Below, one piece after another: positions 7,409-64,000 of a stretch of 64,000 nucleotides of DNA. The notes under the pieces were generated by a model. It was not told where the DNA came from. It did no database searches and was given only the letters and a program-made list of their open reading frames with translations. The DNA comes from a virus (taxonomy: Duplodnaviria; Caudoviricetes). Within the stretch, counting starts at the first letter, position 1, and every line of letters starts with the position of its first letter. Where the stretch lies: positions 192,001 to 256,000 of IMG/VR virus record IMGVR_UViG_3300024331_000007; one strand, written 5' to 3'. Position numbers and translations under genes: made by a program.

Positions 7409-7630
7409 TTATTTTAAAGGATATTTGGCCTCAAATTCATCTTTCAACGCAACTTGTTTTGCTGCACATTGCCATGCCTCTTTACGAGTATCATGAGTGT
7501 GTGAGATACCGTGATAGCATCTATCAGAAACAGCGGGAATTACAATCAAAAAACCAGCCACACCGGGATCGCCGTCAGGCTTACAGGTTGCCTTTGGATA
7601 ACGAGCCAAAACTTTTTGTCTGTTAGTCAT
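7409..7630 (-). CDS. Dispersed family A protein (YPxA...EAW)
   Basis: MTNRQKVLARYPKA...TRKEAWQCAAKQV; lacks the MLxKLE tail. Confidence 0.7.
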   Translation of the reverse strand: MTNRQKVLARYPKATCKPDGDPGVAGFLIVIPAVSDRCYHGISHTHDTRKEAWQCAAKQVALKDEFEAKYPLK

Positions 7631-38149: not shown

Positions 38150-38352
38150 TAGTTCTCCAGTAAGCGCATCATTTCTGCATTGACAGTTATTCTGGCATGT
38201 TGCCAAGCCTGAGCCTCGGTTTCCCAAGCTCCACTCAGGATAATAATACGACCTCGCGAATATCGCGCCGTAATATATTTGCCAATGGCCGCATCTAAAA
38301 CTGCGTCTGCATTGGGATAGGCGGCAAGGACGATTTCTTTGTCAACGATCAT
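38149..38352 (-). CDS. Dispersed family A protein
   Basis: VDKEIVLAAYPNA...WETEAQAWQHARITVNAEMMRLLEN. Confidence 0.85.
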   Translation of the reverse strand: MIVDKEIVLAAYPNADAVLDAAIGKYITARYSRGRIIILSGAWETEAQAWQHARITVNAEMMRLLEN

Positions 38353-38412: not shown

Positions 38413-38859
38413 TTATTTCAGACAATCTTGGTCACAGGAGGTGGAGTTTGGGTACACTGTTTCGGGTTTCTCTTTTTTCTCTTCGGCTTGATCTTTGTGA
38501 AGTCGCCACATTTGCCAGTACATATCAATTGCGTCCTCTATTGCTTGATGCGTATCAATTTGGCTATTGTCCTGAAGGGATATACCATATTCCCAGTTAT
38601 TATCTGAGACGCTTCCTGTTTCAATCTCCCAAACTGTTTTGTTTCGGATAGCACTATTACCTTTTCCGTCATAACGAGTACATTTGATTGTGACATTCTC
38701 GCAACCACCTGCATAATCACAGATGTGTTGAAGATTAGAATGTTTTGGCAGGAGTTGAGTTGCAGTATTTGGATGGATTTTATTTATTGTTGCACACCCA
38801 ACAAGAAGGCCCACACCAGAAATAAGTATCAGGACTGGGTTAATTCGAAATATGTTCAT
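38413..38859 (-). CDS. Lipoprotein
   Basis: Lipobox LLVG-C. Confidence 0.65.
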   Translation of the reverse strand: MNIFRINPVLILISGVGLLVGCATINKIHPNTATQLLPKHSNLQHICDYAGGCENVTIKCTRYDGKGNSAIRNKTVWEIETGSVSDNNWEYGISLQDNSQIDTHQAIEDAIDMYWQMWRLHKDQAEEKKEKPETVYPNSTSCDQDCLK

Positions 38860-39059
38860 TATTCCTCCAACTTTTTAAGCATGCTATTATTAATTCGTTC
38901 TTTGGCGCCTTCCTATGCTCGTTCTGGCGTTTGATATACAAAGCTCAAATCCTTGAACTCAGGCCATTTGTCTCCCATTGAAATATAATGGCCCCAACTT
39001 TCTGATCTGAGCTTGGCCGTTGGATAGATTGAAAGAACAAATTCCTTATCGGTCATCAT
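38859..39059 (-). pseudogene. Dispersed family A paralog with in-frame TAG at the invariant Trp
   Basis: MMTDKEFVLSIYPTA...TPERA*(38913-38915)EGAKERINNSMLKKLEE*. Confidence 0.85.
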
Positions 39060-41330: not shown

Positions 41331-42089
41331 TTATCCTTCCAATATCGCCAGCATTGCTTCTTCGGCGTCCATCTCTCTAACTAATTTTTCGGGAATGGCC
41401 CACAATGGCATTGCTGACGATTTATCTATTATGGGGAGATGTGTGACCCAAAAAATCGCGGGATTCGTGTCTCGTGTGTACTTCATTATCTTACCTGCGC
41501 GGACACCAGAATCCAGACTGGCAAACGTTTCTCCACAGAAAACATCATCTTTTGGATTGAACCAAACAAAGTCACCGAGGTACATTAAACATCCTCCAGC
41601 ATTGCCAACATTGCTTCTTCATCGCTCATCTTCCTCAGTAAATTGTTTGGTATTGCCCAAAGAGGAACTGAATCTTTACTTGATGCAAAACATACTGATG
41701 ACACCCAACATAGTTTGTCAGCTAACTTAAAAATCTGTCCCGCCTTAAATTCGGTTTCATGAAGGTTATTATTGGTGCCACTCCCGCACCCGCACCAAGC
41801 ATCGTCGCATTGTCTGAACCAAACAAAATCTCCAGTATTCATATCAGGCTTCCAGTATTGCCAGCATAGCTTCTGCGTCTTCAAGCGGTTTAACCATACT
41901 TTTTGGAATAGCCCAAAGAGGATAAGGAGAAGTTGAATGTACGGGGAGTGGCGTCACCCAAAATACATCACAATGTTTGTGTCTATTCTCATCAATAATC
42001 TTTCCAATGGTCCCCTTTCCACTTGAATAGAACGGAGGGCAGAATACATCGTTGTTCGGATCAAAAGTAACGTAGTCGCCAATCTTCAT
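41331..42089 (-). CDS. Three tandem closely related SH3-like family C proteins (41331-41585, 41585-~41842, 41844-42089)
   Basis: GDFVWF/GDYVTF...AGKI...(F/C)WV...PLWAIP..LxxM.DEEAML(A)(I/M)LE. Confidence 0.8.
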
Positions 42090-48475: not shown

Positions 48476-51400
48476 TTAAACTCCCACGACAGGTGGGTTT
48501 ATAAACGAACTGTTTGGAAACTTGATATAGATAGCTCCATCGTCATCATTTAAAAATACATCGGATGTATCAAAGAACGTACCAATATCTGTGAAGTTGG
48601 TTGTTCCTTCAGTAATGATAACAATGCAATTCTCAGTCGTCAAATCGAAACTGGATTCTGTAGTTAAATCATCGTCGGGAACACCCTGATCAAACTGAGT
48701 TAATTCAGATGACCACCATCCTGCAACAATGACCACATTGACATTTGCAAAGGCATTTCCAGTTGGCAATAAGCCCAGATTAGCAAGAGGAGTATTATTT
48801 CCGTCATAAAGAATAAATGGACTGCCAGTGATGTTCTGGATGTATAGTTCATTGTCTGCTCCTATTCCTGCTTGTATACCCTGTATGTCATAGCTATTGA
48901 TGATGGCGGCAACGTTAGATATATCGGCAATATTTGATGGCAAATTAACAACTATATTTCCAGTGTATGAATAAGTTCTGGGCGTGAGGTCTGGAGCGAA
49001 GGCAATAGGAGCGGCTGGATTAATCGTGAAGCTGCTATTGGCAGTCAAATTCAAGCTATAGGCATAACCCGCAGATGTTGTCTCAGAGATACCATTGGCA
49101 TTATTGACCAAAAATGAAACAGGCGTCGATGATACTACTGGGAATTTTCCATTGTTATTGGCATTGGTCATACCCTGAATAACCATCTGTGTTCCAGCAG
49201 GAACTGCATTTCCTGTGTTCGTTTCAATTACAGCATAATTTGCGTTACTGCCAGAAACAGTCACAGCAGAAATCTGGGCTGTAATATTCTTCGCAACTAA
49301 TGTTACGCGGGGACGCGGGTCCCAATTCTGGCTGTATCCCGCATTCCAAACCAATCTATCTGTAATTGCGTCGATAGTCTCCACAGCAGGACCAATAGTG
49401 TTATAGTATTGCTGTAGATAGAACATGATTCTCTTCCCTGTTCCCGGTTTGCAATACAACAGAGGAATTGCAGGCACAAAACCCAGAATTTGTCCATCTG
49501 GTTGAATGTCCCGCATCCAAGAAGGCAGGAAGTTATAGTCGAAACCATTTAAATGGGTATTCAACTGGTGAATCATGTTCGGTAATGTTGCAGGGAAGGC
49601 GTTTTTTGGACCCGCTGGAGTATTATAACTAACGGGACCAGAAAAAGTCTGATAACTTGTATTTGTGAACTCGTCCAAAGGTTCAATATAGATAACCTCG
49701 TATCCTTCCGAGGAAGATCGCGCCCACTTCAGACCATTAAATAGATATTTCTTATTATGGAAGTATCTTTCAATTGCTTCCTGAATGGTATCTGGGATTT
49801 CTGGGCTGATTCCATAGGCCAATAGCATTCTAACATGCTGAGCAATACCAAAATAGAAGTCATCCTGACGGAAGATATCATCATTGGACACGATAGACTC
49901 ATCATTCAATGGAGTGAACAGAGTATTCATATCTGTATCGCCCAAAAGAAATTCCAGACTTAAATTAGTTGGTGGTGCGGCAGTAATACTGTTTGGTATA
50001 GTTGTTTTCAGGTTTAATGTGAAGTCTCTCGTTACCTGAATGAGCGTCTGGAAGTTCTCAGTGACAACATTGGCACCACTAAGATCAGTTTCAGTGAAAT
50101 CGATGGGGCGATTCTGTCCAATTGACGCTGTAACTGTAAAATCAAAGGTGCGATCAAAGATTGTTTGATTCTGGTCAACAATTGTTGTCTGATCCATAGA
50201 AAAATATTGACTGGATGGCAGACCAACAATAAGTCCATTGGACAATAGCTGGCAACCAGCAGGAATCGTACCTCCTGTTAGCTCATACTTAATAGGATTG
50301 GTCGGTGTAATTCTGCTGCGACCCAGAATTGTAACCTTTGGAATGGCCTGATAGTTATGACCAGTCGTATCCACGATAACATTGGATAATGTACCGTTGA
50401 AAATACGCGCTTCCGCTGTGGCTGTTACAGACTCACCCGCAGGTTCGAATCCTACTGTTGCTGTATCATAGAATCCACCTCTGGTTAGGATATTAACTTG
50501 ATCCACTCCGAAGTCCAAACCGAATATAGCATTAAGAGCATTGGCATTTCCAGTGGAATTAGTCCAGATAACAGTTAGTCCATCAGGTAATTTAGTATAT
50601 TCCTGCACAATTGTTGGGTCGATTGTAACCTCAGTAATTGTTCCTGACGCACTTACGTTAGACACAATGATATTGGCACTGTTCGCACTAATTCCACCGG
50701 GAACTGTGAAGATAGAACCGTTCGCAAAAGCGTTACCACCATTAATAATCTCAACACCAACCAATTTTAATGTGCAATTAGCTGTTGCTGTTTGGATAGA
50801 AGGAGCAGTGAAAGGCTCAATGATTGAGGCATGAACGTCCAGACTGCTTGGAACGCCAGCAAAGAGGTTTCCAAGGTTATTCTGGCTATCCCAGACAATG
50901 CTATTGTCTGCTGGATTCTCAACAGTCAGTGTGCAAAAGGCTGTTGTTTGTAAATGACTATTCGTAAAGACGTTTGCACTCTTATAGGCAATGACTTGGA
51001 ACTCGTATGGAGTAGGCAAAGTCAGATCGCGGTTAATATAACCAGACAACCACCCTGTAATTGGATTGATCGTGACATTGCCCGGTATAGCATCTCCATT
51101 AATAAGGAGATAATTCAGTGTATTATCTTCGAAGTCTTCAGTGCGAAACTGGTAAAGGATCGAGTCACCGTCCACAACACCCAAATTGATGTTGGCAAAG
51201 TCCGAAGAACAAACATTCAGACCGAAAGTAGCATCCAAAAAGATTGGATCATGATACACAGGACCAGAAACATTTGCGTTGGCATTATTAAACAGGTCTT
51301 GGCGCTGAATTGTCAGACTGAAATCCGCAGTATTTTGTGCATCGTACTGGACTGTGAAGTCGTATGTCCGAGAATTGGCGCTGTGAGGCAGGTTTGGCTT

Positions 51401-51931
51401 GCCAGCCTCTTTGTTTGGATAGATGAAACCAGAATCGTACAGGACAACAGGGCTTACATAGCCTGTAATGTCGCCTGTCTCTGGGTTCAAAACAAGTTGG
51501 TCTGGAAGACTACCAGAAACGATAGTCATATTCGTCGGCCAGTTTGGTGTGGCAGTTAGTGGGGCAACTGTGGAATACAAATATTGACCATCTGGAAAAA
51601 TGCCCAGATCGGAATTAGGAAACAAATATGAAGGTTCTTGATCTAATACATTAAAAGAGAAGGCTCTATCCGAAATATTTCCTACATCAGTAGATGCTCT
51701 TATTGTAAAGGTAGACAAACCAGTTATTGCATCAACAGAAGTAGACCCCCAAATTGATGGAAAAGGTAGACTTGGTTGATTAAAGGGGCCAGTGATTGTT
51801 AAGCCAATAGGAAGATTTCCTGCTATAATAGAAAAAGAGTTAGCTCCAGAACATGAAATAGCTACATTGCAAGGTTCACCTTTTGCAATGTTTCCTAATG
51901 ATCCAGCGGGGGTTGTCCAGACGATAGCCAT
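48476..51931 (-). CDS. Baseplate wedge-like large structural protein
   Basis: MAIVWTTPAGSLG, repeated putative Ig (G.LP.GL.L...G.I.G) modules, FDxTTF-like tail; TAAATA-5 nt-ATG 51931. Confidence 0.7.
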   Translation of the reverse strand: MAIVWTTPAGSLGNIAKGEPCNVAISCSGANSFSIIAGNLPIGLTITGPFNQPSLPFPSIWGSTSVDAITGLSTFTIRASTDVGNISDRAFSFNVLDQEPSYLFPNSDLGIFPDGQYLYSTVAPLTATPNWPTNMTIVSGSLPDQLVLNPETGDITGYVSPVVLYDSGFIYPNKEAGKPNLPHSANSRTYDFTVQYDAQNTADFSLTIQRQDLFNNANANVSGPVYHDPIFLDATFGLNVCSSDFANINLGVVDGDSILYQFRTEDFEDNTLNYLLINGDAIPGNVTINPITGWLSGYINRDLTLPTPYEFQVIAYKSANVFTNSHLQTTAFCTLTVENPADNSIVWDSQNNLGNLFAGVPSSLDVHASIIEPFTAPSIQTATANCTLKLVGVEIINGGNAFANGSIFTVPGGISANSANIIVSNVSASGTITEVTIDPTIVQEYTKLPDGLTVIWTNSTGNANALNAIFGLDFGVDQVNILTRGGFYDTATVGFEPAGESVTATAEARIFNGTLSNVIVDTTGHNYQAIPKVTILGRSRITPTNPIKYELTGGTIPAGCQLLSNGLIVGLPSSQYFSMDQTTIVDQNQTIFDRTFDFTVTASIGQNRPIDFTETDLSGANVVTENFQTLIQVTRDFTLNLKTTIPNSITAAPPTNLSLEFLLGDTDMNTLFTPLNDESIVSNDDIFRQDDFYFGIAQHVRMLLAYGISPEIPDTIQEAIERYFHNKKYLFNGLKWARSSSEGYEVIYIEPLDEFTNTSYQTFSGPVSYNTPAGPKNAFPATLPNMIHQLNTHLNGFDYNFLPSWMRDIQPDGQILGFVPAIPLLYCKPGTGKRIMFYLQQYYNTIGPAVETIDAITDRLVWNAGYSQNWDPRPRVTLVAKNITAQISAVTVSGSNANYAVIETNTGNAVPAGTQMVIQGMTNANNNGKFPVVSSTPVSFLVNNANGISETTSAGYAYSLNLTANSSFTINPAAPIAFAPDLTPRTYSYTGNIVVNLPSNIADISNVAAIINSYDIQGIQAGIGADNELYIQNITGSPFILYDGNNTPLANLGLLPTGNAFANVNVVIVAGWWSSELTQFDQGVPDDDLTTESSFDLTTENCIVIITEGTTNFTDIGTFFDTSDVFLNDDDGAIYIKFPNSSFINPPVVGV

Positions 51932-51936
51932 ATCAA

Positions 51937-51942
51937 TATTTA
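51937..51942 (-). promoter_or_regulatory. T4-like late promoter TAAATA (exemplar of at least 15 copies)
   Basis: Also at 7327, 13467, 17650, 18628, 21399, 23197, 32554, 37554, 43815 (minus) and 1070, 23247, 35021, 46114, 51954, 62633 (plus); precedes structural and endonuclease genes. Confidence 0.75.
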
Positions 51943-51953
51943 GCAATCGCTGA

Positions 51954-52022
51954 TAAATACAAATGCCAACCGCGAGTCTGAACACTCCGTTGGCTCTAAT
52001 GTCAGAGAGGACATCAGCTATG
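51954..52022 (+). ncRNA. Structured 5' leader motif, copy 3
   Basis: TAAATA-caaat-GCCAAC-CGC-GAGT-ctgaac-ACTC-C-GTTGGC-tcta-ATGTC-agagag-GACAT-cagct-ATG. Confidence 0.8.
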
Positions 52023-53432: not shown

Positions 53433-55246
53433 TAGTCGTAGTACTCCCCTTCCGTCCAGCGAACAGTATGAGTTACTTTCTCAGTGTGCTGACCGGGGTG
53501 GTGCATCCATCGATTGCAGGTCCCAATAACATGATGAGTTGATCCTTTGGCGAGTCTGGTATTGTTGCAATAGATATGACCAATCGCACATAAAATGTAT
53601 CGAAATAGTTTCATTAGTTCTCCAACATGTACATCATTTGATGTTCAACATAATGCCAAGCATATTCCCATGCGCCTTCTTCTGTGTACTTACTGGTGGA
53701 AATAATACTGCCATTGCGATCAATCACAATATCGTAACTATATCGAACAACATCTGTGAAGATGCCATTATCCATCCTGTAATAATAAGTTTTTCTATTG
53801 TGCTTTAAACAATAAGCCTCGGGATATATTTCAAGGACCTTTTCCTTAAAATCTATGACTCCAGAATCTTCATTGTTTGGTATTCTATCCACGTCCATGC
53901 ATCTCTCCAAGATTCTTCCTCACTGTTTCCAACCCCGATAGTATGATGACCTGATCCCGTAACATAGTGCCATACTACGCTTCTACTATAATATGGAAAC
54001 CCGTCCACAAATGTTGCCGATGGATAAACAGCCAGAACTTTGGCTTTATAGTCTATGACTCCAACTTCTTCAGCATCTCGTTCTGAATGTAATACCATGC
54101 GTTTTGCCATGCACCATACTCCCAATAAGTATTTCGTGCCATCTGAACATCGCCGTTCCAAACATCAAAATATCTGCAACTAGTTATTCCATCGGGCTTG
54201 ACTGCGCGATTCCAGCCATGTTCAATACAGGTTGCCTCTGGATAAACAGCCAGAACTTTGGCTTTGTAATCTATTTCTCCAGCTTCGCCATCATTTGTGC
54301 TGATATTATTGTCCACGCTCTTTCCCACGCCCGTGTTTCGCTATCACAATGAGGACTCAATATATAAAATGTGAATCCTCTTTCCTCGGGTATTTCTGGT
54401 GACGCTCTGGATAGAATCACATAGGTCAATTCCAAGTAGTTCGCAACTCGGACTGGCTTCTTACAAAAGGCCAAAGGATAAATGGACTTGACTAATTCCT
54501 CGTAATTTATTCTCCCAGCTTCTCCAGCATTTCCCTCTGTATGTTCTGCCACGCCACTATCCATGCTGTTCCTCTCGTTCGTGTGCTTCCATGCAGCCAT
54601 TGCCACGTTTCCTGTCCTTCCCAATGAATAGACCATTGCCAAGTCATATCCATATCCCACGGTTCTCGGTGAATCATTCTGGCATTTGGAAATGTGGCTA
54701 GAACATGAGCACGAGCTATATTACCAAAATTACCAATATCTTCAGTGCGATAATGTTCCTGAGTATTCTTCATATGCTATCTCATTGTACATTTATTGTC
54801 GAAGTTTTTCCATCATCATTTCGTTTACTGTATCCCATGCTCTCGACCAAGCTTCCAAAGGACTATCACCAATTCCCATATTGAACCCATTTAGTTGCGG
54901 AGGTTCTTTCTTGTATTTGTGCATCTCCCCAGAATAAATTATGTACATTGGCGGGAAGGTTTTCCAACCATCTCTGACTGTCATATTGGCATTTGGGTAT
55001 GCCGTATGAACCAGCTTCATGAGTTTTCGAATTTTGCGAGTAGTTCTTGCTGAATCGATTTCCACGCTCTTTTCCATGCCTCCCTTTCTGTTTGTGCGTA
55101 CGCTCTGATGAACTGGTTTATGGATTGTTTGCTCCATGTGACCAAATAATATGGCGGTTCGTTTCTATTATTCTCACCAATATTCTTGCCATCATTAAAC
55201 ATGAGGCTGGCATCAGGATAAATCTTCAGCACTTTTTCTTTAACTG

Positions 55247-55471
55247 TCATTTTTCCAGCTTCATCAGCATAATTGCATTGATATATTCCATTGCCATTTC
55301 CCATGCTTCGGAATATGAGCTACGAATGGACACGTCCAGATACTATTCGTATCCATGTTTAGTTTTGTTTCCGCTGCACACAACATACCCTTTATTATCT
55401 CTGGAGTATGCTGTTACGACTCGCGCACTAGGATAGATGTTCGTCACGAAATGTATTGGATTTTCTTTCAT
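55247..55471 (-). pseudogene. Family A unit with in-frame TAG
   Basis: MKENPIHFVTNIYPSA...KHGYE*(55343-55345)YLDVSIRSSYSEAWEMAMEYINAIMLMKLEK*. Confidence 0.8.
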
Positions 55472-57470
55472 CAGTCTGCCAACTTGTCCAGCATTTTCTT
55501 GTCCATAATCTTTCGCCCCAAAGACCACATTTTCCGAGAAGATAAAGGTCCATGAATAAGTGAATAGCCTGATCCATCGCCATCCAGCACAAATACGATA
55601 TATCGTTCGTCTCCTTGAGTTGGGTAGAACTGGGCGTTTGGAAAATATTTCTTCACATATTTTTCATCTTTGGTCATGATTCCAACTTTTGCAGCATTAA
55701 TTCAGCTATGATTTTCTTTGCTTCTCTCCAAACTATTGATTCGTCCTCTTCTATGCGATGCCAAATCCATCCCAAAGTTAAATATGGCTCTCTTTCAGTT
55801 CCAATTGAAATTGCTGCCTGAGCATAATTCCATCGTATGAGTTTAGCCTCGGGATATATTGATAGAACACACTCTTTATCTGTCATGATTCCAGCACCAT
55901 AACCATACATCTTAGAATTGCTGACTTTGCTGATTCCCATGCCTCTTCTTCTGTCGGTAACCCCGAAAAACTGAAATATGAATTTTCGGGATATCCAGTG
56001 TATGCTCTAAACCTGTATAGATCATCCTTTGAATACGGATTTTTCACAATAAAAGCATTTGGATATGAGTTCACAACAAACTCTTTTGCTGTCATGACGC
56101 CAGTTTTCTCATCATTCTTGCATTCAGTATTCTTTTTGCATCGTTCCATTGAACTGACTCCCTTTTACTTGCCTTGATTAAGGCCCATGACCCATAATGT
56201 TTGCCTTCGTACTCAATGATTAAAAAGTCTTCAGTATCAGGCAGCTTTTCAAACCTAGCATTAGGAAAGACAGATAGTACAAACTCTTTGGCTGTCATTC
56301 TTCAAACTTCTGTAGCATCCTTTTCGTTATTTCCTGCCTGACATATCTCCATGCTGCTCTCGTATCCTTATACGTATACCAACCATATGTTACCCATAAA
56401 TAGTTGGGTGGCCGTCGCTCTAGGTATATTGCAATGAGATTACGGTCCACGCACCAGCGAACAAGGTTGGCTTCTGGATACACCGATCTAACAAATTGCT
56501 TATCAGTCATGATGCCAGCTTTCTGATCATCTCAAGTTCAATATTTTCCTTCAATCTTTTCCAAACTTCGCGCGCATCATTTCCAGTCATGACATATAAT
56601 TGAGTATTCGGTTCCAACCGATATGTGGAATAACCAGTGACGTATTCAGAATCAACCCATGCATGAGGGTATAATGATTTTACAAACTGCTTATCAGTCA
56701 TTGTGCAAGTTTCCTCAGCATTTCGACTTCAATACTTCCTCGCAATCCCGTCCACACTTCGTCTTCATTACTGCGTCTGGTAACTGTCCATTCTTCTTTT
56801 TCAAGTTTAAATAGGCAGTATCCAGCAATATAATGGGTCATAACCTCAGCCTGAGGATACATCGATAGAACGAACTCTTTATCGGTCATAATGCCAACTT
56901 TCTCAGGATGCTTTTGTTCAGTATATCTCTGGCAGCTTCCCATGCTGCCTCTTCTGTTTCGTACATCGGTATAGACCAATTTGATGCATACACGCCGACA
57001 ATATAGAATCGGCCCGGTTCTGGAGTTGTATAGGTCGCGCAGAACGCATCTGGATTAAGGCTTTGAACAAATTCTTTAGCCGTTAACTCGCCAGCTTGTC
57101 CAGAATCCGTCCGTTTGTTATTTTCCTTGCTCCGCACCACGCTTCCTCTTCTGTATTGTGAAGAATTGTTCTGCTGTCCATAAAACCCAGATTGAAAACA
57201 TAGTAGTATGTTTTCCAATTATATCTGTCTGGGCATACACATGCCTCAGGATAAATTGCAAGAACGAACTCTTTATCTGTCATTCTTCTAACTTCCTAAT
57301 CATTGCAAAATTAATATCTTCTCTGGCGTACCGCCAAGTCATGTTCTCTGTTGTTTCAGCGCAATATCCTATTGTCTTATAAGGAGAATGACCAATCTCA
57401 ATGCACATACCAGATTTAAATGAAATAAATTTGGCGTTTGGATAAACAGCCAACACGAACTCTTTGTCAG

Positions 57471-57689
57471 TCATTGTTCCAACTTTCTCAGCATATTCCA
57501 CTCAATGATTTCTCGTGCATCTTTCCATGCGTTCTCTGGTGAATTACAAAGTCCACTCAGAGCTTCAAAACTATAGAGTCCCATTCCTCGTACTACCTAA
57601 TATTGTTCTGGCGCGTTACCATAATCCTCACCGACTATTTTAATCGCTGCATTTGGGTGAAACATTCGAACAAATTGTTCAGGTGTCAT
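57471..57689 (-). pseudogene. Family A unit with in-frame TAG (absent from ORF track)
   Basis: MTPEQFVRMFHPNA...PEQY*(57597-57599)VVRG...SPENAWKDAREIIEWNMLRKLEQ*. Confidence 0.85.
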
Positions 57690-58130
57690 ACTATTGAGTC
57701 GTTTCCCTCTAACTTATTCAGCATTCTTTGTCCAACTCTTTCTCGTGCTTCGGCCCATGCCTCATCTGGAGTTTCACAAGTTCCAGCAACCCAATCGTAA
57801 CAAACTTTACCATCAAATCGTATTACAATATAACCAACGTTGTTTTTGTATCGCCAACTCCAGCATGTTGACAATTGAACATCATCATACACGCTCATTA
57901 GGAACTCTTTATCTGTCATGATTCAAATGCCTTTAAGGTTTCCGTCAATATTCGTTCTTTACCATTGCGCCACATTTCTTCTTCAGTATCTCCCGACACA
58001 CAAAACGTAACTATCGATGCATGATGACCTGTTCGAGTGGCCCAAATTTCATAGCCTTTTTTACCCGACCAAAACACCTTTGTACGATATATTCGTGGAT
58101 ACACCGATCTAACAAATATCTCGTCTTCGG

Positions 58131-58381
58131 TCATTGTTCGAGTTTTTCCACCATTCGTCTTTGTGTTGTTAGCCACGCTCGTCTCCACGCTTCTTTAGCA
58201 TTCCACGGCGGAAGCCACCCCAATTTTTTATATTCGGGGGATCATTGGGTTGAGATGATAAATTGTCATACCAAATATAACCTTTAAAAGAATCAGTATT
58301 TCCAACCCACTGAATGACTTCCTTAGTCTGTGTTAGATATGCCTTTGGAAAAACCGACAGAACTTTTTGTCGATAACTCAG
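58131..58381 (-). pseudogene. Family A unit split by a -1 frameshift at an A6 run (pseudogene or programmed frameshift)
   Basis: Frame 0 LSYRQKVLSVFPKA...PPNIKN; -1 frame KKLGWLPPWNAKEAWRRAWLTTQRRMVEKLEQ*; A AAA AAT at 58229-58223. Confidence 0.75.
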
Positions 58382-58613
58382 GCGCTTTCTAACTTGTCCA
58401 CCATGTCTTTTAGTATCTGTTCCCATGCCGCTTTCCATGCCTTCTTTGAATCATAAATTCTGTCACACAATTTTACAGTCTCGTAGTAATTGTTCCAGAA
58501 TCCTTTACATTCAGCCCTGTACTGAACTGATCCGTACCAAAACTCTGCGTTCGGATGAATCTGAAGAACTCGCTGCCTGTGCGTCAGGTGTTTTCGAACA
58601 TTCGTTTTAACCG

Positions 58614-58835
58614 TCATCGCTCTAACATTCTTAGCATTGTTTTTTCGTCATCCAGAATCTCAATCATTTCAGGGTCCATTTCGCAAAAGCAACCACCACG
58701 AATCTCCATATAGACTCGTCCGTCGTGACATTCAAACACCTTACCCAATTCAGATATGTCCTGCCATTTGATAAAAGGTCTGGTATGCCACACCCAATCT
58801 CCAACATTTATGAGTTTGCCATTCTTATCTTTCAT
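58614..58835 (-). CDS. SH3-like family C gene embedded in the family A array
   Basis: MKDKNGKLINVGDWVW...DEKTMLRMLER; ATGA overlaps on both sides. Confidence 0.8.
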   Translation of the reverse strand: MKDKNGKLINVGDWVWHTRPFIKWQDISELGKVFECHDGRVYMEIRGGCFCEMDPEMIEILDDEKTMLRMLER

Positions 58836-61028
58836 GACTCCAGCCTTCTCAACATGAATCTGTCAACAATTCCGACTGCCTTTTGCCATGCGGAAGGTGC
58901 TGTATGAGCACAGGAAGCACACCAATTGTGGCCTTTCTCATCAATCCAAATCTCGTAACGATAATGTCCATCGGTATAAAACCTGAGATGGGCAGATGGA
59001 AAGATTGCCTGAATATGCTGCTTCGGAGTCATTCTGCGAGCTTGTCCAACATCTGTTTTTGAACTGTTCTCCATGCCTGTTCCCAAGCCCTTTCTGGTGT
59101 GTAGTCTTCCGCCAGTGTCACATCCCATGATTGCATTCCCTTTTCTTTTCGAACTTTAACAGACCACACACTCAAACCTGCAAATTTGAATGGGAATAGT
59201 GTTGCAGTTGGATATATTGCTTTAACGCTTTCTTCGGCTGTCATGGTTTAAATCTTCTGCGAGCCATTGCTTTTTCTTCCATCTCTTCATACATGCGCTG
59301 ATCCCACTCTCTTTCTTCCTCGCGCAGTTTTTCGAAGTATTCCTGTTCTAGCCTGTAGTCTTCTTCTCGTTCTCTCCAATACTGATCCATCGGGTCTTCT
59401 GCCAACTTGTCCAACATCTGCTGTTGAATGGCAATCCATGCTTGCTCCCATGCAACATCCTCAATCATATCTGGTGGACAAAACGTAGTGCTGATGGTTG
59501 CCAATTTCTGTTCAAATGGAAAGTCAGTAATCTCAATGAGAAACTGATCTTCCTTTGCATCACGAGCAATACGTTGGCTCTTGTGCGCAATTGCATTTGG
59601 ATATATTGCCAACACATGTTCTTTAGCTGTCATATTCCAGCTTCCTTAACATTTTGGTTTGAACATTTTTCCATGCTGACTCCCATGCATTATCAAGCGT
59701 AGACCCCACACCTATAGTATACATCTTTTTGTGCCAGTGCTTAATGTTAAAATCTGGGTAGTCGGAGCTAATTTCAACCAAATATATACTTAACGGAACC
59801 TTGCGGCCATCTCTTTTGTTTTGCAGGACTTTAATCTCTGCTTCGGGATAGATATTCAGAACATTTTCTTTAGCAGTCATATTTCGAATCTCTGTACCAT
59901 ATCTCTCATTATTCTGAATGCCGCCTGTTTCCAAACCAAAATTTCAAACATTCTTCTTGGAAGTGGATGATCTGTTGGCCTATGAACAGATGCCAGTGTT
60001 TGTTGATCCTCAGAAGTAGCAGGTGCACTGAGTAACAAATACGTTGTTCCTGATTTCCGCCCAACTCCGAATTTGTGTGTGAATGATTCTGGGTAGGAAC
60101 TAAGCACTATTCGTTTGGCCTCTCGTAGTGTCATGCGTTTTCCAGCTTCTCCAACATTTCATGTTGAACATCGCGCCATGCGATTGACCAAGCCAATTCT
60201 TCACTATCAGCCATTGTCATGTAATGCATTATAGGGGCCCCATCATATCTGATCCTGACTCGTCGCACATAATACATTAAACGACCATAAATCTGAATCG
60301 TGTCCGCTTCAGTTGTGCAATGGGCGCTTGGATATACCGCCATTACATTTTCCTTATCTGTCAAATGCGCCCTCCAACTGTAGTAGCATATTATGCTGAA
60401 TTTGTTTCCATGCTCGATTCCATGCAATATTTTCTGTGGCGCAAGTGCGGCCAATAAATCTGTCGTTCCATGATTTACCGCCGCAACATTTCTTATCACG
60501 GCATGGCTCGTTATAAACATACAAATAGAAACCATCATCCTCTCGGATGCAGGCATGTGGATATATTGCTTTGACTTTTTGTTCGGCTGTCTTTCTCATT
60601 GTGCCAACTTTGCCAGCATATCTCGCTGAATTTCAGTCCATGCCGCTCTCCACGCATTCTTTTTACATGCCACAGAAGGTCCAGCGTAGCCATTACTTCC
60701 TTCTGGACAACATTTTGGATTCCTGCAACCAAACGCCAGAACATAATAGTCAACTTGTTCTGATCCAACATCCACTCCTCGAACGTAGGCATGCTTATAA
60801 AGATTGATTACCTGATGTTTTGGTGTCATTGCTCTAACCTTCTAACCATTCCGATTGCAATCTTACCCCATGCATTTTTCCACGCAATTTTTGGCGTAAC
60901 ACCAACCCCAAGCCATGTTTCCGCCAATTCGCTGACACGAATATAAATTACCCAAAACTTTTTCACATGCTCGTATTTCTTCTGCTTTGCCGCTGGATAA
61001 ATCCGCCGCACATTTATCATGTCTTCGT

Positions 61029-61230
61029 TCATGATTCCAACTTCCTTAACATGTCTTCGCTCCAAGTTCCGTGGATGCAAGATACGAATGACCAACCAGC
61101 GCGTCATCAAAATGCTGAACTGTGTATCTGTAACAGGATGCGAATCGTTGTTCCGTGCAAAATGCCTGCGGATAAAACTTCAAAACCTTCTCACGAACGG
61201 AAACGAGTTCTGTTTGATCCTTGGAATAAG
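61029..61230 (-). pseudogene. Family A unit with internal deletion/frameshift
   Basis: VREKVLKFYPQA... lacks the AW helix; EDMLRKLES* survives in another frame ending 61029; 5' boundary approximate. Confidence 0.6.
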
Positions 61231-62194
61231 ACATTCCTGAACTCCTTTCGTAATGGATAACCAAGTCCAATCCATGCTTGTTCCCACAACTGAGCATCGT
61301 ATTTGAAACTGCCATAAAATGTGTGATTATTGAATACTAACCACCTGCTTCCAACCTTAACACCGCGAACTTTCTTCTTTCTTCCACACACAGTTGCCCA
61401 ACCATCTTCAACTTTGGCTGTGGGGAAACACAATTTGACTTTTTCTTCAGTAGTCATGACATTAGCTTTTTCAACATCCGTTTCTGGATTCTTAGCCACG
61501 CCCATTCCCACAGATTTTCCTCAGACACCTTGTAGTAATCCATCTTGAAGATGAGCCATTTCCCGTCAGCAATCTTAATGCCAGAAACTTTATACTTGCG
61601 TTGCTTGAATCCATTAGCAGTTGACCGTTGGTAAACAGCTTCGGGATAAACGTTCTGTACCATCTCTTTGAAGTTCATTTGATTGCCAACTTTCTCAGCA
61701 TTCTTTCTTCAATCTTTTTCCATGTTCTTTCCCACACATATTCTCGGGAGAATCCACTAATGACATCCTGTACGGTATTTTCGTCCGAATACAACCAAAC
61801 CTCATACAAAAACTCATCAATACTTCCATGAGGGACAATCCTAAATTCAGTACGAGGATACAGGTTCATAACCATTTTTTCGTAATCTAGCTCGCCAACT
61901 TCTTCAACATTTCCTGCTGAATCTTTTTCCATGTACGTCTCCAAAGAATGTGCTCAAACTTTCCACCATATGCGTAACATTTATTACCGATCCAAACACC
62001 CTTGGCCATAATTTCTTTGCCGTAGTGCGATCCATCCGTTGACCAATCCCATGTTGATTGTGGTATCCAACCCCATTTCAATACAGCCTCTGGATAAACG
62101 GATTTTACTTTATCTTCTGCCCTTAATGAGGCAAACGTTCCTACACTCTTATTTTGAATGTTTGGGAACGTTATGTTCTTAGTCGATTTGTTTT

Positions 62195-62413
62195 TCATCC
62201 CATGATCTTTCTGAGTATATCTCGTCCTGCAATGCGTAAAAGATTTGTGATCTTGATTTCTGGAGCTTGCCGTTTCGTCTTGTGCAAAAAACAATAGTTG
62301 TTTCCAGATTCAGCCTGTAGCTTGCAACGATGTTTTTCCAAATACTTGTGAACTTCAGCATCGCTCATCAGCGAAATATCTGCGTCTCCGCAATAAATGC
62401 ATCTTTTACTCAT
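62195..62413 (-). CDS. Cys/His protein embedded in array, with DILRKIM tail
   Basis: CIYC...HRC...C; ATGA coupling. Confidence 0.6.
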   Translation of the reverse strand: MSKRCIYCGDADISLMSDAEVHKYLEKHRCKLQAESGNNYCFLHKTKRQAPEIKITNLLRIAGRDILRKIMG

Positions 62414-62632
62414 GACTCAAACTGCCTCATGATCTTGAAGTTTAATTCTTTCTTCAATTTCACCCAAACGCCATCTTCTGTTAAAGACCGTTGTAATTTG
62501 TCGTAATCTCCGAGTCCAAGTGATCCAACATATCGGACACCATCAGAAAATTTCAACGAAACAACTCTCGCATCTGGACACAACTCTTGCACGAATTGTT
62601 GGTCTTCGCTCATTAGAAACGACTTTCTATGC

Positions 62633-62705
62633 TAAATACTTATGCAGTTCGCGAGTCTCGTGAACTCCAACTGCCCTAACGCCATTTCGAGGCAATCAGC
62701 ATATG
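62633..62705 (+). ncRNA. Structured 5' leader motif, copy 4
   Basis: TAAATA-cttat-GCAGTT-CGC-GAGT-ctcgtga-ACTC-C-AACTGC-cctaac-GCC-atttcga-GGC-aatcagcat-ATG. Confidence 0.8.
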
Positions 62706-63317
62706 AATACTTATCCCAATAATAACACATTTTACGTTTACGCATATCTTCGCCAAAATGGAACACCATATTACATAGGTAAAGGAAACGGAGATAGGGC
62801 ATTTCGTAATTATCGTAAACGATGTGTTCGTCCTCCAAAAGATAAATCTCGTGTAGTCATCCTTTTTGAGAACTTATTTGAACCAGCTTCCTTTCAAATA
62901 GAGATGCTATTTATTCGCATGTTTGGTCGTATTGATCTTGGAACTGGGTGCCTTCATAATAGAACCAGCGGCGGTGAAGGCATCAGTGGTTATCGTAGAA
63001 GTCCAGAATCAATCGCTAAACAAATTGAGACTATGAAGCGAAACAACAAGAAACAAAGTAATGCAACCATTCTGAAAAGAATAAACACTAGAAAACTGAA
63101 TGGAACCTTGAATCCTAATACATTAGATTCACTGCATAAAACAAAAATCAAACGAATTGCCAATGGATCGTATAAGCGCACACCAGAAGCTATCGCTAAA
63201 CAGATTGCTACGCAAAAACGAAATGGCACTAATAAAAGGACTCCAGAATCTATCGCCAAAGGATTAGCAACAAAATTAGCCAGAAAATCAATAACGATAG
63301 ACAATCCTACCCATTGA
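62703..63317 (+). CDS. GIY-YIG homing endonuclease with three (K/R)R(S/T)PE(S/A)IAK repeats (antisense insertion)
   Basis: FYVYAYLRQNGTPYYIGKGNGDRAF...LHNRTSGGEG. Confidence 0.85.
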   Translation: MNTYPNNNTFYVYAYLRQNGTPYYIGKGNGDRAFRNYRKRCVRPPKDKSRVVILFENLFEPASFQIEMLFIRMFGRIDLGTGCLHNRTSGGEGISGYRRSPESIAKQIETMKRNNKKQSNATILKRINTRKLNGTLNPNTLDSLHKTKIKRIANGSYKRTPEAIAKQIATQKRNGTNKRTPESIAKGLATKLARKSITIDNPTH

Positions 63318-63503
63318 TAATGAATATGGTGATAATTCCAACAATACTTCGTCTCCCGGTTCAATTCGGATGTTGTTTTTGCGCAACCTTCCACCCAAAT
63401 AAGCTGTGATCTGCTGATTACCCGGAATCTCCACCAACCATGTTGTATTGGGGAGCGTCTTTAAAATCCTACCTCTTAGTTCTACCTGTTCGTCGCGTGG
63501 CAT
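63288..63503 (-). CDS. infA: Translation initiation factor IF-1
   Basis: ELRGRILKTLPNTTWLVEI...TAYLGGRLRKNNIRIEPGDEVLLELSPYSLSMGRIVYRY; AGGAG SD. Confidence 0.92.
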   Translation of the reverse strand: MPRDEQVELRGRILKTLPNTTWLVEIPGNQQITAYLGGRLRKNNIRIEPGDEVLLELSPYSLSMGRIVYRY

Positions 63504-63520: not shown

Positions 63521-63549
63521 ATTATACCGAATTTCTTACTTACTGTCAA
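63521..63549 (-). promoter_or_regulatory. Perfect-consensus sigma70 promoter upstream of infA
   Basis: TTGACA-17 nt-TATAAT. Confidence 0.9.
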
Positions 63550-63745
63550 GCCCTTTAAACTTGTCCAAAATCCTTTTGTTTGTTATACTTAAAGACCATT
63601 CCCATGCTTGTATTTCGTTAGCCCATGAATGTGCAATGATTTTTTCGTCGGCTACAATAAACCAAAAGTTTGGGCATTCTTCAGGAACTCCTCTACAATA
63701 TGCGTTTGGAAACAGTTTTATCATTTGGTCTTTGGCTTCGTTCAC
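63536..63745 (-). CDS. Family A protein
   Basis: GTG start overlapping upstream TGA; MIKLFPNA...EIQAWEWSLSITNKRILDKFK. Confidence 0.75.
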   Translation of the reverse strand: MNEAKDQMIKLFPNAYCRGVPEECPNFWFIVADEKIIAHSWANEIQAWEWSLSITNKRILDKFKGLDSK

Positions 63746-63975
63746 AAGTTCTCCAACTTCCATAACATTGCCTCGCCTTTAGTCATCTTTCTGACATTGT
63801 GGCCTAATTTGTGTCGTGTCTCATTATTTGGTGACCATACAGTCAAGTAAACTTCGTCCATAATCTTAAGAATTTCAACAACCTGTCCTGTGTTATTGAA
63901 GTCTTGCTGACTTTCGAAATCTCTCCAAAAGACAACATCGTCAACGCCGACTTTCTTTCCGTTAATGTCCTTCAA
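63742..63975 (-). CDS. SH3-like family C protein
   Basis: TTG start; KDINGKKVGVDDVVFW...GEAMLWKLENL. Confidence 0.8.
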   Translation of the reverse strand: MKDINGKKVGVDDVVFWRDFESQQDFNNTGQVVEILKIMDEVYLTVWSPNNETRHKLGHNVRKMTKGEAMLWKLENL

Positions 63976-64000
63976 GAATTTTCTAGTCGCCACAGCATTG
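63972..64000 (-). CDS. 3' end of an upstream tagged gene entering from the right edge
   Basis: ...AMLWRLENS* with TGA at 63974-63972. Confidence 0.65.

What the first reader, a model, noticed from the sequence alone, without database searches (positions are those of the whole stretch)
53614..62613. A 38-gene tandem library of ~70 aa proteins with fixed ends and hypervariable centres
Seen: 38 consecutive minus-strand units of about 200-260 nt, almost all joined by 4-nt stop/start overlaps. Each starts MTxK(E/Q)xVxx(V/I)YPxA and ends ExAWxxAxxxIxxxMLxKLE*. The 25-45 aa between these ends cannot be aligned by eye and are rich in Tyr/Trp/Arg. Four more members are dispersed (7409, 38149, 38859, 63536). 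Inference: a constant scaffold with a variable binding surface, i.e. a repertoire of binders such as inhibitors of host defence proteins or host-range factors. It would expand and reshuffle by recombination between conserved junctions. The GxTxEEAWxxA turn-helix loosely recalls the HicB N-terminal domain (unverified). I know of no described system of this size and architecture.
Basis: partly seen in the sequence, partly recalled or inferred. Interest (0 to 1): 0.92.

Follow-up and report, generated by a model that had tools for sequence, protein, structure and literature searches.

The report
Giant mini-protein gene family in phage
An uncultured 360-kb soil phage carries 84 very different copies of one unnamed ~70-residue protein, 38 of them chained in this stretch; they keep one small fold with a fast-changing surface and are probably a built-in set of small binding proteins whose targets are unknown.

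Summary
Window 53614-62613 (minus strand) has exactly 38 units of one family, plus two unrelated small genes. The whole 359,890-bp phage record has 84 copies, about 5% of the genome. The scan already reported this family from the adjacent window of the same genome (e1-5402105).

The family matches no Pfam, PHROG or PDB sequence. About 2,077 metagenomic protein clusters match its profile. Two very different members fold confidently (pLDDT 83 and 88) into the same alpha-beta-beta-beta-alpha domain. The conserved ends form the core. The centre is near random between paralogs and enriched in Trp and Tyr.

dsRBDs are the nearest fold (Z 5.7 or less), but dsRBD sequence and RNA-binding motifs are absent. 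HicA/HicB is not supported.

Of 37 junctions, 23 are ATGA overlaps. Seven more keep that geometry without an ATG and appear to start at an ATG or GTG inside the previous unit's Trp codons. Two units are frameshifted. Three otherwise intact units carry one in-frame TAG, and the phage encodes two tRNA-CUA.

A related phage has 4 units where this one has 38.

Best reading: a fixed repertoire of early small binders that grows and shrinks by gene birth and death. Function is untested. Large tandem arrays in jumbo phages were noted before (Hua 2017).

The parts
53614..62613 (-). Main array: 38 units of the ~70-aa alpha-beta3-alpha family plus 2 unrelated small genes, in one gap-poor polycistron
   Evidence: HMM census and unit table. 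Junction table. Three-frame reading of the gaps.
53617..54510 (-). Four consecutive 'I-D-Y/F-K' units with ATA where the ATG should be. The previous unit's stop (TAG or TAA) keeps the -4 geometry. The likely real starts are an ATG or GTG 14 or 18 codons upstream, inside the previous unit's NNA/G-TGG (x-Trp) codons, giving out-of-frame overlaps of about 45-57 nt.
   Evidence: All 7 non-ATG units keep an open upstream frame with an ATG or GTG 12-20 codons upstream, against 9 of 35 ATG/GTG units (Fisher p = 0.0004).
56889..57086 (-). Unit with TTA at the conserved start position and in-frame GTG 17 and 18 codons upstream
61678..61890 (-). Unit with CTA at the conserved start position and in-frame ATG 14 codons upstream
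54510..54773 (-). Trp-rich unit with a 17-aa N-terminal extension (ATG at 54773). This is the second modelled member.
   Evidence: ORF; pLDDT 88, same topology, and the extension lengthens helix alpha1.
56095..56298 (-). Typical 68-aa unit. This is the first modelled member: alpha1 3-10, beta1 15-18, beta2 25-30, beta3 37-42, alpha2 47-67.
   Evidence: pLDDT 83, pTM 0.68
55253..55471 (-). Full-length unit with one in-frame TAG (codon 43). The part after the TAG keeps every family motif.
57474..57689 (-). Full-length unit with one in-frame TAG (codon 31). It fills the apparent 'gap' in the array.
38859..39056 (-). Dispersed unit with TAG exactly at the invariant Trp codon
58137..58381 (-). Frameshifted unit. 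The N-part is in one frame and the intact C-helix ending ...VEKLEQ-stop is in another. It still makes an ATGA junction with the next unit.
61035..61204 (-). Decayed unit with a frameshift plus a deletion of about 7 codons in the C-helix. The tail MLRKLES-stop and the ATGA junction are retained.
61194..61457 (-). Unit with a degenerate C-terminal helix
59244..59633 (-). Unit with a highly charged C-terminal extension of about 50 aa (130 aa in all)
58614..58835 (-). Non-family gene inside the array.
   Evidence: no Pfam hit
62195..62413 (-). Non-family 72-aa Cys-rich ORF inside the array, ending ...DILRKIMG
   Evidence: no Pfam hit
63539..63763 (-). Family member upstream of the array (ATG 7 codons before the conserved position). 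It has a clear syntenic ortholog in the related phage.
   Evidence: SH-aLRT 99
63521..63549 (-). Perfect sigma70-type promoter (TTGACA-17-TATAAT, 12/12) reading into the IF-1 gene and the array
   Evidence: one of two 12/12 sites in the genome
63288..63503 (-). Phage IF-1 (infA) homolog between the promoter and the array
   Evidence: PF01176, E 8e-18
7412..7630 (-). Dispersed family member without the usual tail
38152..38352 (-). Dispersed family member
48476..51985 (-). 1169-aa protein downstream of the array. It is the synteny anchor, 68% identical in the related lineage, where the array also sits directly upstream of it.

Best explanation
This is the largest block (38 of 84 copies) of an undescribed, phage-specific family of single-domain proteins of about 70 residues.

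Fold. Each unit folds as alpha1-beta1-beta2-beta3-alpha2. The conserved ends are the scaffold: helix alpha1 ending in Y-P-x-A, and helix alpha2 with the invariant Trp and the A/I/M-L/L face. Together with two inward-facing beta2 positions they form the core. The outer sheet face and the two hairpin loops are free to vary. They are Trp/Tyr-rich and differ in every copy.

Expression. The genes lie in a long leftward, early-type polycistron fed by sigma70-like promoters. Most lack a Shine-Dalgarno site of their own. Ribosomes are most likely passed from unit to unit by termination-reinitiation at ATGA overlaps. Seven units instead appear to start at an ATG or GTG embedded in the previous unit's Trp codons.

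Evolution. The family grew by old local tandem duplications and evolves by birth and death. This is shown by frameshifted relics, 38 versus 4 units at the same place in a relative, and few 1:1 orthologs.

Inferred function. It is a hard-wired repertoire of small protein-binding modules made early in infection. Each has its own target, probably a host protein such as a defence or housekeeping factor, in the manner of small phage inhibitors like T7 Gp1.2 or anti-CRISPRs.

What is shown and what is inferred. Shown: the family, the predicted fold, the junction geometry, the divergence pattern and the turnover. Inferred: early timing, translational coupling, binding and targets.
For: Family and size: 83 HMM hits genome-wide plus one more TAG-interrupted unit. 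2,077 clusters match the profile in 1.84 billion proteins, all unnamed.

Fold: two members 23% identical give the same topology at pLDDT 83 and 88.

Conservation pattern: paralog identity is 35% in the N-helix, 10% in the centre and 32% in the C-helix, with Trp invariant.

Surface: the centre is enriched in Trp 2.4x and Tyr 1.9x. pI spans 4.6-10.1, so there is no uniform charge.

Selection: about 79 of 84 units keep open frames despite near-saturating divergence (median terminal branch 0.94 substitutions per site). Four collinear ortholog pairs, plus two further clear pairs outside that run, keep 35% identity in the centre, against 19% for random pairs and 68% for the flanking protein.

Turnover: a relative has 4 units where this genome has 38. 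Window units cluster on the tree (18 label changes vs 28.1 expected, 0 of 500 shuffles). Adjacent units form sister pairs.

Coupling: 23 ATGA junctions in the array. The last codon is NNA in 52 of 83 units. 43 of 57 ATG units lack an SD 4-mer, while about half of the long genes have one, mostly spaced 6-10 nt before the start.

Early operon: a 12/12 sigma70 promoter lies upstream, and no convincing minus-strand terminator lies inside.

Precedent for the fold as a phage inhibitor: T7 Gp1.2 bound to dGTPase scores Z 5.4 over 76 residues, in the same tier as the best dsRBDs.

Modularity: other phages fuse 3-4 such domains in one protein.

The architecture of two divergent arrays recurs in three lineages.
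Against: No binding partner, target or phenotype is known. No RNA or proteomic data exist for this uncultured phage, and the host is unknown.

The fold matches are weak (Z 5.7 or less) and prove no function.

Trp/Tyr enrichment could also serve fold stability.

Eighty-four different targets is a very large number for one phage. No known anti-defence or host-takeover set is built from a single family of this size.

The ortholog comparison is partly circular, because orthologs were recognised by similarity. Only their collinear order is independent.
Confidence: 0.5

Rival explanations
1. Genome filler from tandem duplication (an 'accordion' or capsid-size ratchet). The array arose by repeated duplication and persists largely because head-full packaging tolerates or needs the DNA. 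Individual copies would have little or no specific function.
For: Hua et al. proposed tandem duplication as a route of jumbo-phage genome growth (PMC5646251). Copy number differs about ten-fold between lineages at this place. Five of 38 window units are damaged or interrupted. Most units lack clear orthologs.
Against: Copies are at most 44% identical, yet about 79 of 84 keep open frames and all core residues. Neutral DNA would not do this. Syntenic orthologs conserve their centres above the paralog baseline. The family is kept in at least 3 lineages and about 2,077 clusters. Junction geometry and coupling signals are maintained.
Confidence: 0.15
2. Parts of one assembly, or clients of one hub. 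The units bind each other or dock through the shared C-terminal tail (M-L-x-K-L-E) to a common partner. The family would then act collectively as a coat, scaffold, condensate or cargo set rather than as independent binders.
For: The same tail ends 22 small ORFs of unrelated fold in this genome, against 2 of 2,066 at random cuts. Isolated and array-terminal members keep the tail. Coupled translation would give near-equal amounts of every unit. Several of the top structural neighbours are dsRBDs reported in protein-protein complexes or dimers, such as TARBP2 D3, PACT D3, ADAR1 dsRBD3 and Staufen dsRBD5.
Against: Multi-domain fusions in other phages drop the K-L-E-S tail, so it is not needed for the fold. 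The tail codons overlap the next gene's start region and show synonymous bias (AAG p = 0.0005, Leu NNG p = 0.03). Part of the conservation may therefore be at the nucleotide level. A collective structure would not need every surface to differ.
Confidence: 0.12
3. Divergent dsRNA-binding domains. The units would bind double-stranded or structured RNA (host or phage transcripts, rRNA, tRNA).
For: dsRBDs are the top structural neighbours of both models (Z up to 5.7). The C-terminal pattern G-x-G-x-(S/T)-x-x-x-A-x-x-x-A is loosely like the dsRBD's, as I recall that consensus. An IF-1 gene sits next to the array.
Against: The Pfam dsrm model finds nothing in all six frames of the genome while ringing in 10 of 14 control genomes. 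GPxH occurs in 0 of 83 units and KKxAK-like in 1 of 83. The N-terminus of alpha2 is acidic, not basic. pI ranges down to 4.6. Z below 6 is within the range of a common arrangement (notes).
Confidence: 0.07
4. HicA/HicB-type toxin-antitoxin relatives.
For: There are weak structural hits: 2dsy, a Thermus thermophilus protein that I take to be HicB-like from memory (TM 0.57, E 1.6), and a HicA-family model (probability 0.44).
Against: No HicA_toxin or HicB_lk_antitox match exists anywhere in the genome at E up to 1, with controls ringing. No unit hits these families. There is no two-gene toxin-antitoxin layout, since the neighbours are more copies of the same family.
Confidence: 0.02

Closest known systems
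Tandem arrays of more than 30 small paralogous genes in jumbo phages G and 121Q (Hua et al. 2017, mBio, PMC5646251). Earlier notes of this scan describe similar arrays of other families in Asteriusvirus-type coliphages and soil phages.
   Same: A jumbo phage genome; tens of head-to-tail small genes of one family; interpreted as tandem duplication; function unknown.
   Different: The family is unrelated: no hit to those PHROGs, and an alpha/beta fold instead of the helical bundles that earlier notes of this scan report for the coliphage arrays. It is larger, with 84 copies in several arrays and two divergent operons. The copies are far more diverged ('very similar genes' there; at most 44% identity here). 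Extra features are embedded alternative starts, TAG-interrupted members, and a tail shared with another fold family.
Double-stranded RNA-binding domain (dsRBD, Pfam PF00035), including dsRBDs that act in protein-protein complexes or dimers (TARBP2 D3, PACT D3, Loquacious D3, ADAR1 dsRBD3)
   Same: The alpha-beta-beta-beta-alpha topology and size. dsRBDs are the best structural neighbours of both models (Z 5.2-5.7, 56-66 residues aligned, rmsd 2.6-3.1 A).
   Different: There is no sequence or profile match. RNA-binding motifs are absent and the charge at the N-terminus of alpha2 is reversed. An invariant Trp and a Y-P-x-A helix cap appear that I do not recall in the dsRBD consensus. The proteins stand alone in arrays.
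Small phage-encoded protein inhibitors of host enzymes, such as T7 Gp1.2 (dGTPase inhibitor, PDB 7u65) and anti-CRISPR proteins
   Same: Small early phage proteins of 60-90 aa with no enzymatic motifs. Gp1.2 aligns over 76 residues at Z 5.4, level with the best dsRBDs. An AcrIF protein also appears at Z 3.6. The proposed mode of action is binding and blocking a host protein.
   Different: There is no sequence relationship. Those inhibitors are single genes or small mixed loci, not one family expanded to 84 copies. No target is known here.
Hyperplastic regions of T4-type phages with PeSL cassettes (Arbiol et al. 2010, PMC2839356)
   Same: Regions rich in small non-essential early genes. Short repeated sequences between genes are proposed as recombination sites for gain, loss and shuffling of genes (abstract). 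Here the junctions share exact matches of up to 24 nt.
   Different: PeSLs are intergenic promoter-plus-terminator cassettes that flank unrelated genes. Here there is no intergenic space. The repeated sequence is coding (tail plus start), the genes are paralogs, and no recombination product was observed.

Membership tests
dsRBD (Pfam PF00035 dsrm) | alpha1-beta1-beta2-beta3-alpha2 topology of about 65-70 residues | tested here: met
   AlphaFold2 models of two members
dsRBD (Pfam PF00035 dsrm) | Significant match to the family profile | tested here: not met
   hmmscan of 74 members at E up to 1 gives no dsrm hit among the families listed. The dsrm model over the whole genome in six frames gives 0 matches at E up to 1, with controls ringing in 10 of 14 genomes.
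dsRBD (Pfam PF00035 dsrm) | RNA-contact motifs: GPxH in the beta1-beta2 loop and a basic KKxAK at the N-terminus of alpha2 (established knowledge of the family) | tested here: not met
   GPxH in 0 of 83 units and KKxAK-like in 1 of 83. The equivalent positions are 33-51% Asp/Glu.
dsRBD (Pfam PF00035 dsrm) | Clear structural similarity to solved dsRBDs | tested here: inconclusive
   dsRBDs top both lists, but with Z of 5.7 or less and Foldseek E of 0.2 or more. This is within the range of a common arrangement.
dsRBD (Pfam PF00035 dsrm) | Binds double-stranded RNA | not testable with these tools
   Needs a gel shift or similar assay
HicB antitoxin N-terminal domain / HicAB toxin-antitoxin | Match to HicB-like or HicA profiles | tested here: not met
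   PF15919 and PF07927 give 0 matches in the genome at E up to 1, with controls ringing. No such hit for any unit.
HicB antitoxin N-terminal domain / HicAB toxin-antitoxin | Two-gene toxin-antitoxin arrangement | tested here: not met
   The neighbours of each unit are further copies of the same family
HicB antitoxin N-terminal domain / HicAB toxin-antitoxin | Structural similarity to solved HicB-like proteins | tested here: inconclusive
   2dsy_B at TM 0.57, E 1.6
Jumbo-phage tandem arrays of small paralogs (phage G, 121Q; Hua et al. 2017) | More than 30 head-to-tail genes of one family in a phage genome over 200 kb | tested here: met
   38 units in the window array and 84 in the 359,890-bp record. 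Description read in PMC5646251.
Jumbo-phage tandem arrays of small paralogs (phage G, 121Q; Hua et al. 2017) | Homology to the families that form those arrays | tested here: not met
   The PHROG scan of 74 members gives only two single-member hits (phrog_15397, phrog_1194), neither being the families named in earlier notes. tblastn against 50,697 phage records finds nothing.
Diversity-generating retroelement targets | A reverse transcriptase (with a template repeat) in the genome | tested here: not met
   RVT_1 gives 0 matches in the genome, with controls ringing
T4-type PeSL regulatory cassettes | Intergenic promoter plus stem-loop cassettes between the genes | tested here: not met
   Units overlap by 4 nt with no intergenic space. 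Promoter-like and terminator-like sites are not enriched inside the array: 33 vs 30.8 and 4 vs 8.4 expected.

The most novel reading that the evidence does not exclude
The array is a timed, addressable library with two unusual controls.

1. The C-terminal tail M-L-x-K-L-E-(S/N) ends about 65 mini-proteins of at least two unrelated folds in this phage. It may be a protein-level address tag that docks them to one common hub or compartment, while its codons double as the hand-over site for the next gene's translation.

2. A subset of units is gated by in-frame TAG codons, one of them at the invariant Trp. These would be read only when the phage's own tRNA-CUA is made, so different parts of the repertoire would appear at different times of infection.
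Probability: 0.12. Interest if true: 0.85.

Novelty: new variant of a known kind. Interest (0 to 1): 0.6.

Why it matters
Jumbo phages hold hundreds of small genes of unknown function, and a few are known to carry large tandem arrays that nobody has explained.

This family is the most extreme case I found. It has 84 copies of one confidently predicted small domain whose surface differs in every copy. It recurs in at least three soil-phage lineages and about 2,000 metagenomic clusters.

If the units are binders, this would be a natural, germline-encoded library on a 70-residue scaffold. That would be a route to many new inhibitors of bacterial proteins and a ready-made scaffold for protein engineering.

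The locus also offers clean test cases for three questions: translational hand-over at ATGA overlaps without Shine-Dalgarno sites, start codons embedded in a neighbour's conserved Trp codons, and possible gating of genes by phage suppressor tRNAs.

The main limits are practical. The phage is uncultured, its host is unknown, and no expression data exist.

Tried and rejected
- PDB sequence search. The best hit was 9w3g_G 'Phage protein' (E 0.52) on the C-helix. The source paper shows it is VP1, a three-helix-bundle RNA polymerase inhibitor with a different fold. Rejected as spurious.
- P0001, an 1813-aa top profile hit, is a repeat protein that matches only the short N-motif 17 times. Rejected.
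- The search for related loci failed with the alignment (no conserved stretch) and found nothing with P0003.
- The metagenome scan with the flanking 1169-aa protein gave only the same 68% lineage. G001 and G002 are 99.96% identical. Site-wise dN/dS was therefore not possible.
- GenBank phages: megablast of the array and tblastn of two members found nothing. Sinorhizobium phage Phosso, the only cultured record that matched the flanking protein, has no family member.
- Sequencing runs: no RNA holder is listed. The laid contigs came from the source sample and from a second soil sample with identical low-depth fragments. No structural variants or junction-to-junction joints of the array were seen.
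- Complex prediction, homodimer of a typical unit: no verdict (score 0.01). This is not evidence either way.
- Atlas feature search: no usable hit.
- Suppressor tRNA identity: the tRNA-CUA genes are only about 70% like the phage's Lys and Arg tRNAs. No assignment was possible.
- DGR-type hypermutation: no reverse transcriptase in the genome.
- The tail as a classical Shine-Dalgarno site: 43 of 57 units lack any SD 4-mer upstream. Where GGA is present it lies only about 4 nt from the ATG, while most SD sites of long genes lie 6-10 nt upstream. Only modest synonymous bias was found.
- TAG-interrupted units in relatives: one unit in G002 has TAG near its very end, which is uninformative.

Full report
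**Context**

The window is bases 192001-256000 of a 359,890-bp IMG/VR phage record, estimated about 90% complete, from a soil metagenome. Nearly all genes in the window lie on the minus strand. They include an NAD-dependent DNA ligase, an RNA ligase with an HNH domain, a clamp-loader-like ATPase and a cell-wall hydrolase. The scan already reported the same protein family from the neighbouring window of this genome (e1-5402105). I treated that report as a lead and re-derived everything here.

**Observation**

An HMM iterated on all six-frame ORFs of the genome converged on 83 hits. Reading the apparent gaps in three frames added one more unit. It also showed that several 'truncated' hits are full units with one in-frame stop or a frameshift.

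Between 53614 and 62613 there are exactly 38 units. Two unrelated small genes sit among them (58614-58835 and 62195-62413). A further 42 copies lie outside the window:
- 18 continue the same leftward operon (256.9-261.1 kb);
- 14 form a rightward array (264.6-268.4 kb);
- the rest are scattered.

The array is not an assembly artefact. No two units exceed 44% identity. A second soil sample from a different study holds identical fragments that span unit junctions.

**Family and fold**

No unit matches Pfam, and only two single units weakly match a PHROG. The family profile has no significant PDB sequence hit. A profile search of 1.84 billion representative proteins found 2,077 matches at E up to 0.001. 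All that I looked up were unnamed metagenomic proteins.

AlphaFold2 models were made of a typical unit (pLDDT 83) and of a Trp-rich unit only 23% identical to it (pLDDT 88). Both have the same alpha1-beta1-beta2-beta3-alpha2 topology.

Conservation sits in three places:
- alpha1, with the pattern K..V..(V/I)YP.A;
- alpha2, with an invariant Trp followed by A, I, M-L and L one turn apart;
- two alternate positions of beta2.

The rest of the sheet and the hairpin loops vary in sequence and length. Paralog identity is about 10% in the centre, against 35% and 32% at the ends. The centre is enriched in Trp (2.4x), Tyr (1.9x) and Cys (1.7x). pI runs from 4.6 to 10.1.

**Comparison with known folds**

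Both models retrieve dsRBDs first. The scores are modest: Z up to 5.7 and Foldseek E of 0.2 or more. T7 Gp1.2, a dGTPase inhibitor, scores in the same tier at Z 5.4.

Membership in the dsRBD family fails every sequence test:
- the Pfam dsrm model finds nothing in the whole genome, while controls ring;
- GPxH and KKxAK are absent;
- the N-terminus of alpha2 is acidic.

The HicB idea fails as well. A weak hit to 9w3g proved to be a three-helix RNA polymerase inhibitor and is spurious. There is no reverse transcriptase, so the variability is not DGR-driven.

**Junctions and translation**

Of the 37 junctions in the array, 23 are ATGA overlaps. The last codon of a unit is NNA in 52 of 83 cases, so that NNA-TGA contains the next ATG.

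About half of the long genes of this phage carry a GAGG, AGGA or GGAG site, mostly spaced 6-10 nt before the start. In contrast, 43 of 57 ATG-starting units have no such 4-mer. Initiation therefore probably depends on termination-reinitiation.

Seven units keep the same geometry but have ATA, CTA, CTG or TTA where the ATG should be. All seven have an open upstream frame with an ATG or GTG 12-20 codons upstream. Only 9 of 35 ATG/GTG units do (Fisher p = 0.0004). In at least the two units I read codon by codon, these starts arise from the preceding unit's conserved Trp codons: NNA-TGG read one base earlier gives ATG. The result is an out-of-frame overlap of about 45-57 nt. In the model of the unit at 54510-54773, whose 17-residue extension comes from an ordinary upstream ATG, the extension simply lengthens helix alpha1. 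A metagenomic three-domain fusion has the same 'I-D-Y-K' domain start internally.

**Damaged or gated units**

Two window units are frameshifted relics (58137-58381, and 61035-61204 with a deletion in the C-helix). One has a degenerate C-helix.

Three otherwise intact units each have a single in-frame stop, and all three are TAG. One replaces the invariant Trp. No unit has an in-frame TGA or TAA. The genome encodes two tRNA-CUA and one tRNA-UUA. By chance, three of three being TAG has p of about 0.04-0.055. This is suggestive, not proof.

**Transcription**

A perfect sigma70-type promoter (63549-63521) precedes a phage IF-1 gene and then the array. No convincing minus-strand terminator lies inside the array. 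Further upstream, the leftward operon begins at a divergent promoter region between the two large arrays. No RNA data are available.

**Evolution**

The tree is almost a star, with a median terminal branch of 0.94 substitutions per site. Even so, window units cluster (18 label changes against 28.1 expected, 0 of 500 shuffles), and adjacent units form sister pairs. This points to old local duplications.

A related lineage has a flanking 1169-aa protein 68% identical to this one. It carries 31-32 units in the same synteny, again as two divergent arrays. Only about six units have clear orthologs (39-49% identity). Four of these are collinear. Between the ortholog of the 63.5-kb unit and the 1169-aa gene the relative has 4 units, where this genome has 38.

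In those ortholog pairs the centre keeps 35% identity, against 19% for random pairs. The centres are therefore unit-specific and constrained, yet they evolve faster than the ends and much faster than the flank.

A third lineage has 19 units in two divergent arrays. Other phages encode 3-4 fused domains, and one of these fusions has a membrane anchor.

Junctions share exact matches of up to 24 nt: 61 pairs of 12 nt or more, and none in unit middles. That is enough for recombination, but no such event was seen.

**The shared tail**

The tail M-L-x-(K/M)-L-E-(S/N) also ends 22 small ORFs outside the family. Most belong to the phage's second mini-protein family. At random internal cuts the pattern appears in 2 of 2,066 ORFs.

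Isolated members keep the tail, whereas fusions drop it. Its codons show modest synonymous bias. Whether it is a protein tag, a translation hand-over element or both remains open.

**Verdict**

The best-supported reading (about 0.5) is a fixed repertoire of small early binding proteins on a dsRBD-like scaffold. They would be made by coupled translation, and the family evolves by birth and death.

The rivals are:
- duplication filler (0.15);
- a collective assembly or hub-docking system (0.12);
- RNA binding (0.07);
- HicAB (0.02).

Large tandem arrays in jumbo phages are already in print, and this scan has found several others. This is therefore a new, unusually large and differently folded variant of a known but unexplained kind.

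Noticed in passing
window 63288-63503 (-) and 63521-63549 (-): The phage encodes an IF-1 (infA) homolog (PF01176, E 8e-18). It sits directly behind one of only two perfect TTGACA-17-TATAAT sites in the genome.
   Followed up: partly
genome 24352-24428, 24878-24953, 25202-25279 (outside the window): There are two tRNA genes with anticodon CUA and one with UUA, among 52 tRNA genes plus a tmRNA. Their amino-acid identity could not be assigned by similarity.
   Followed up: partly
window 58614-58835, 63742-63993, 41585-41953; genome 68.0-69.9 kb and 255.7-256.9 kb: A second mini-protein family (SH3-like barrels per earlier notes) ends in nearly the same tail (...EEAML(W/Y)KLEN(A)). In all, 22 non-family ORFs carry the tail.
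   Followed up: partly
window 62195-62413 (-): A 72-aa Cys-rich ORF (CxxC ... HxxxC pattern) sits inside the array with a tail-like end ...DILRKIMG. It has no Pfam match.
   Followed up: no
window 59244-59633 (-): One unit carries a C-terminal extension of about 50 residues that is extremely rich in Glu and Arg.
   Followed up: no
genome 141-204 kb, minus strand (e.g. window 11202): The exact variant TTGACA-17-TATACT recurs at least 10 times on the minus strand. It is probably this phage's preferred early promoter form.
   Followed up: no
window 62703-63317 (+): A plus-strand 204-aa ORF lies antisense between IF-1 and the array. It has a GIY-YIG-like N-terminal motif by eye and lysine-rich repeats. 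Pfam gives no hit. Earlier notes treat such genes as endonucleases with a shared RNA-like leader.
   Followed up: no
L012 10001-11482 (Logan contig, another phage): A 493-aa protein carries three domains of this family followed by several predicted membrane-spanning segments. This is a membrane-anchored form of the family.
   Followed up: no
window 48476-51985 (-): The 1169-aa protein downstream of the array is the conserved synteny anchor. Its only cultured relative is a stretch of a protein annotated 'S8 family peptidase' in Sinorhizobium phage Phosso (26% identity over 290 aa). Pfam finds no domain in it.
   Followed up: partly
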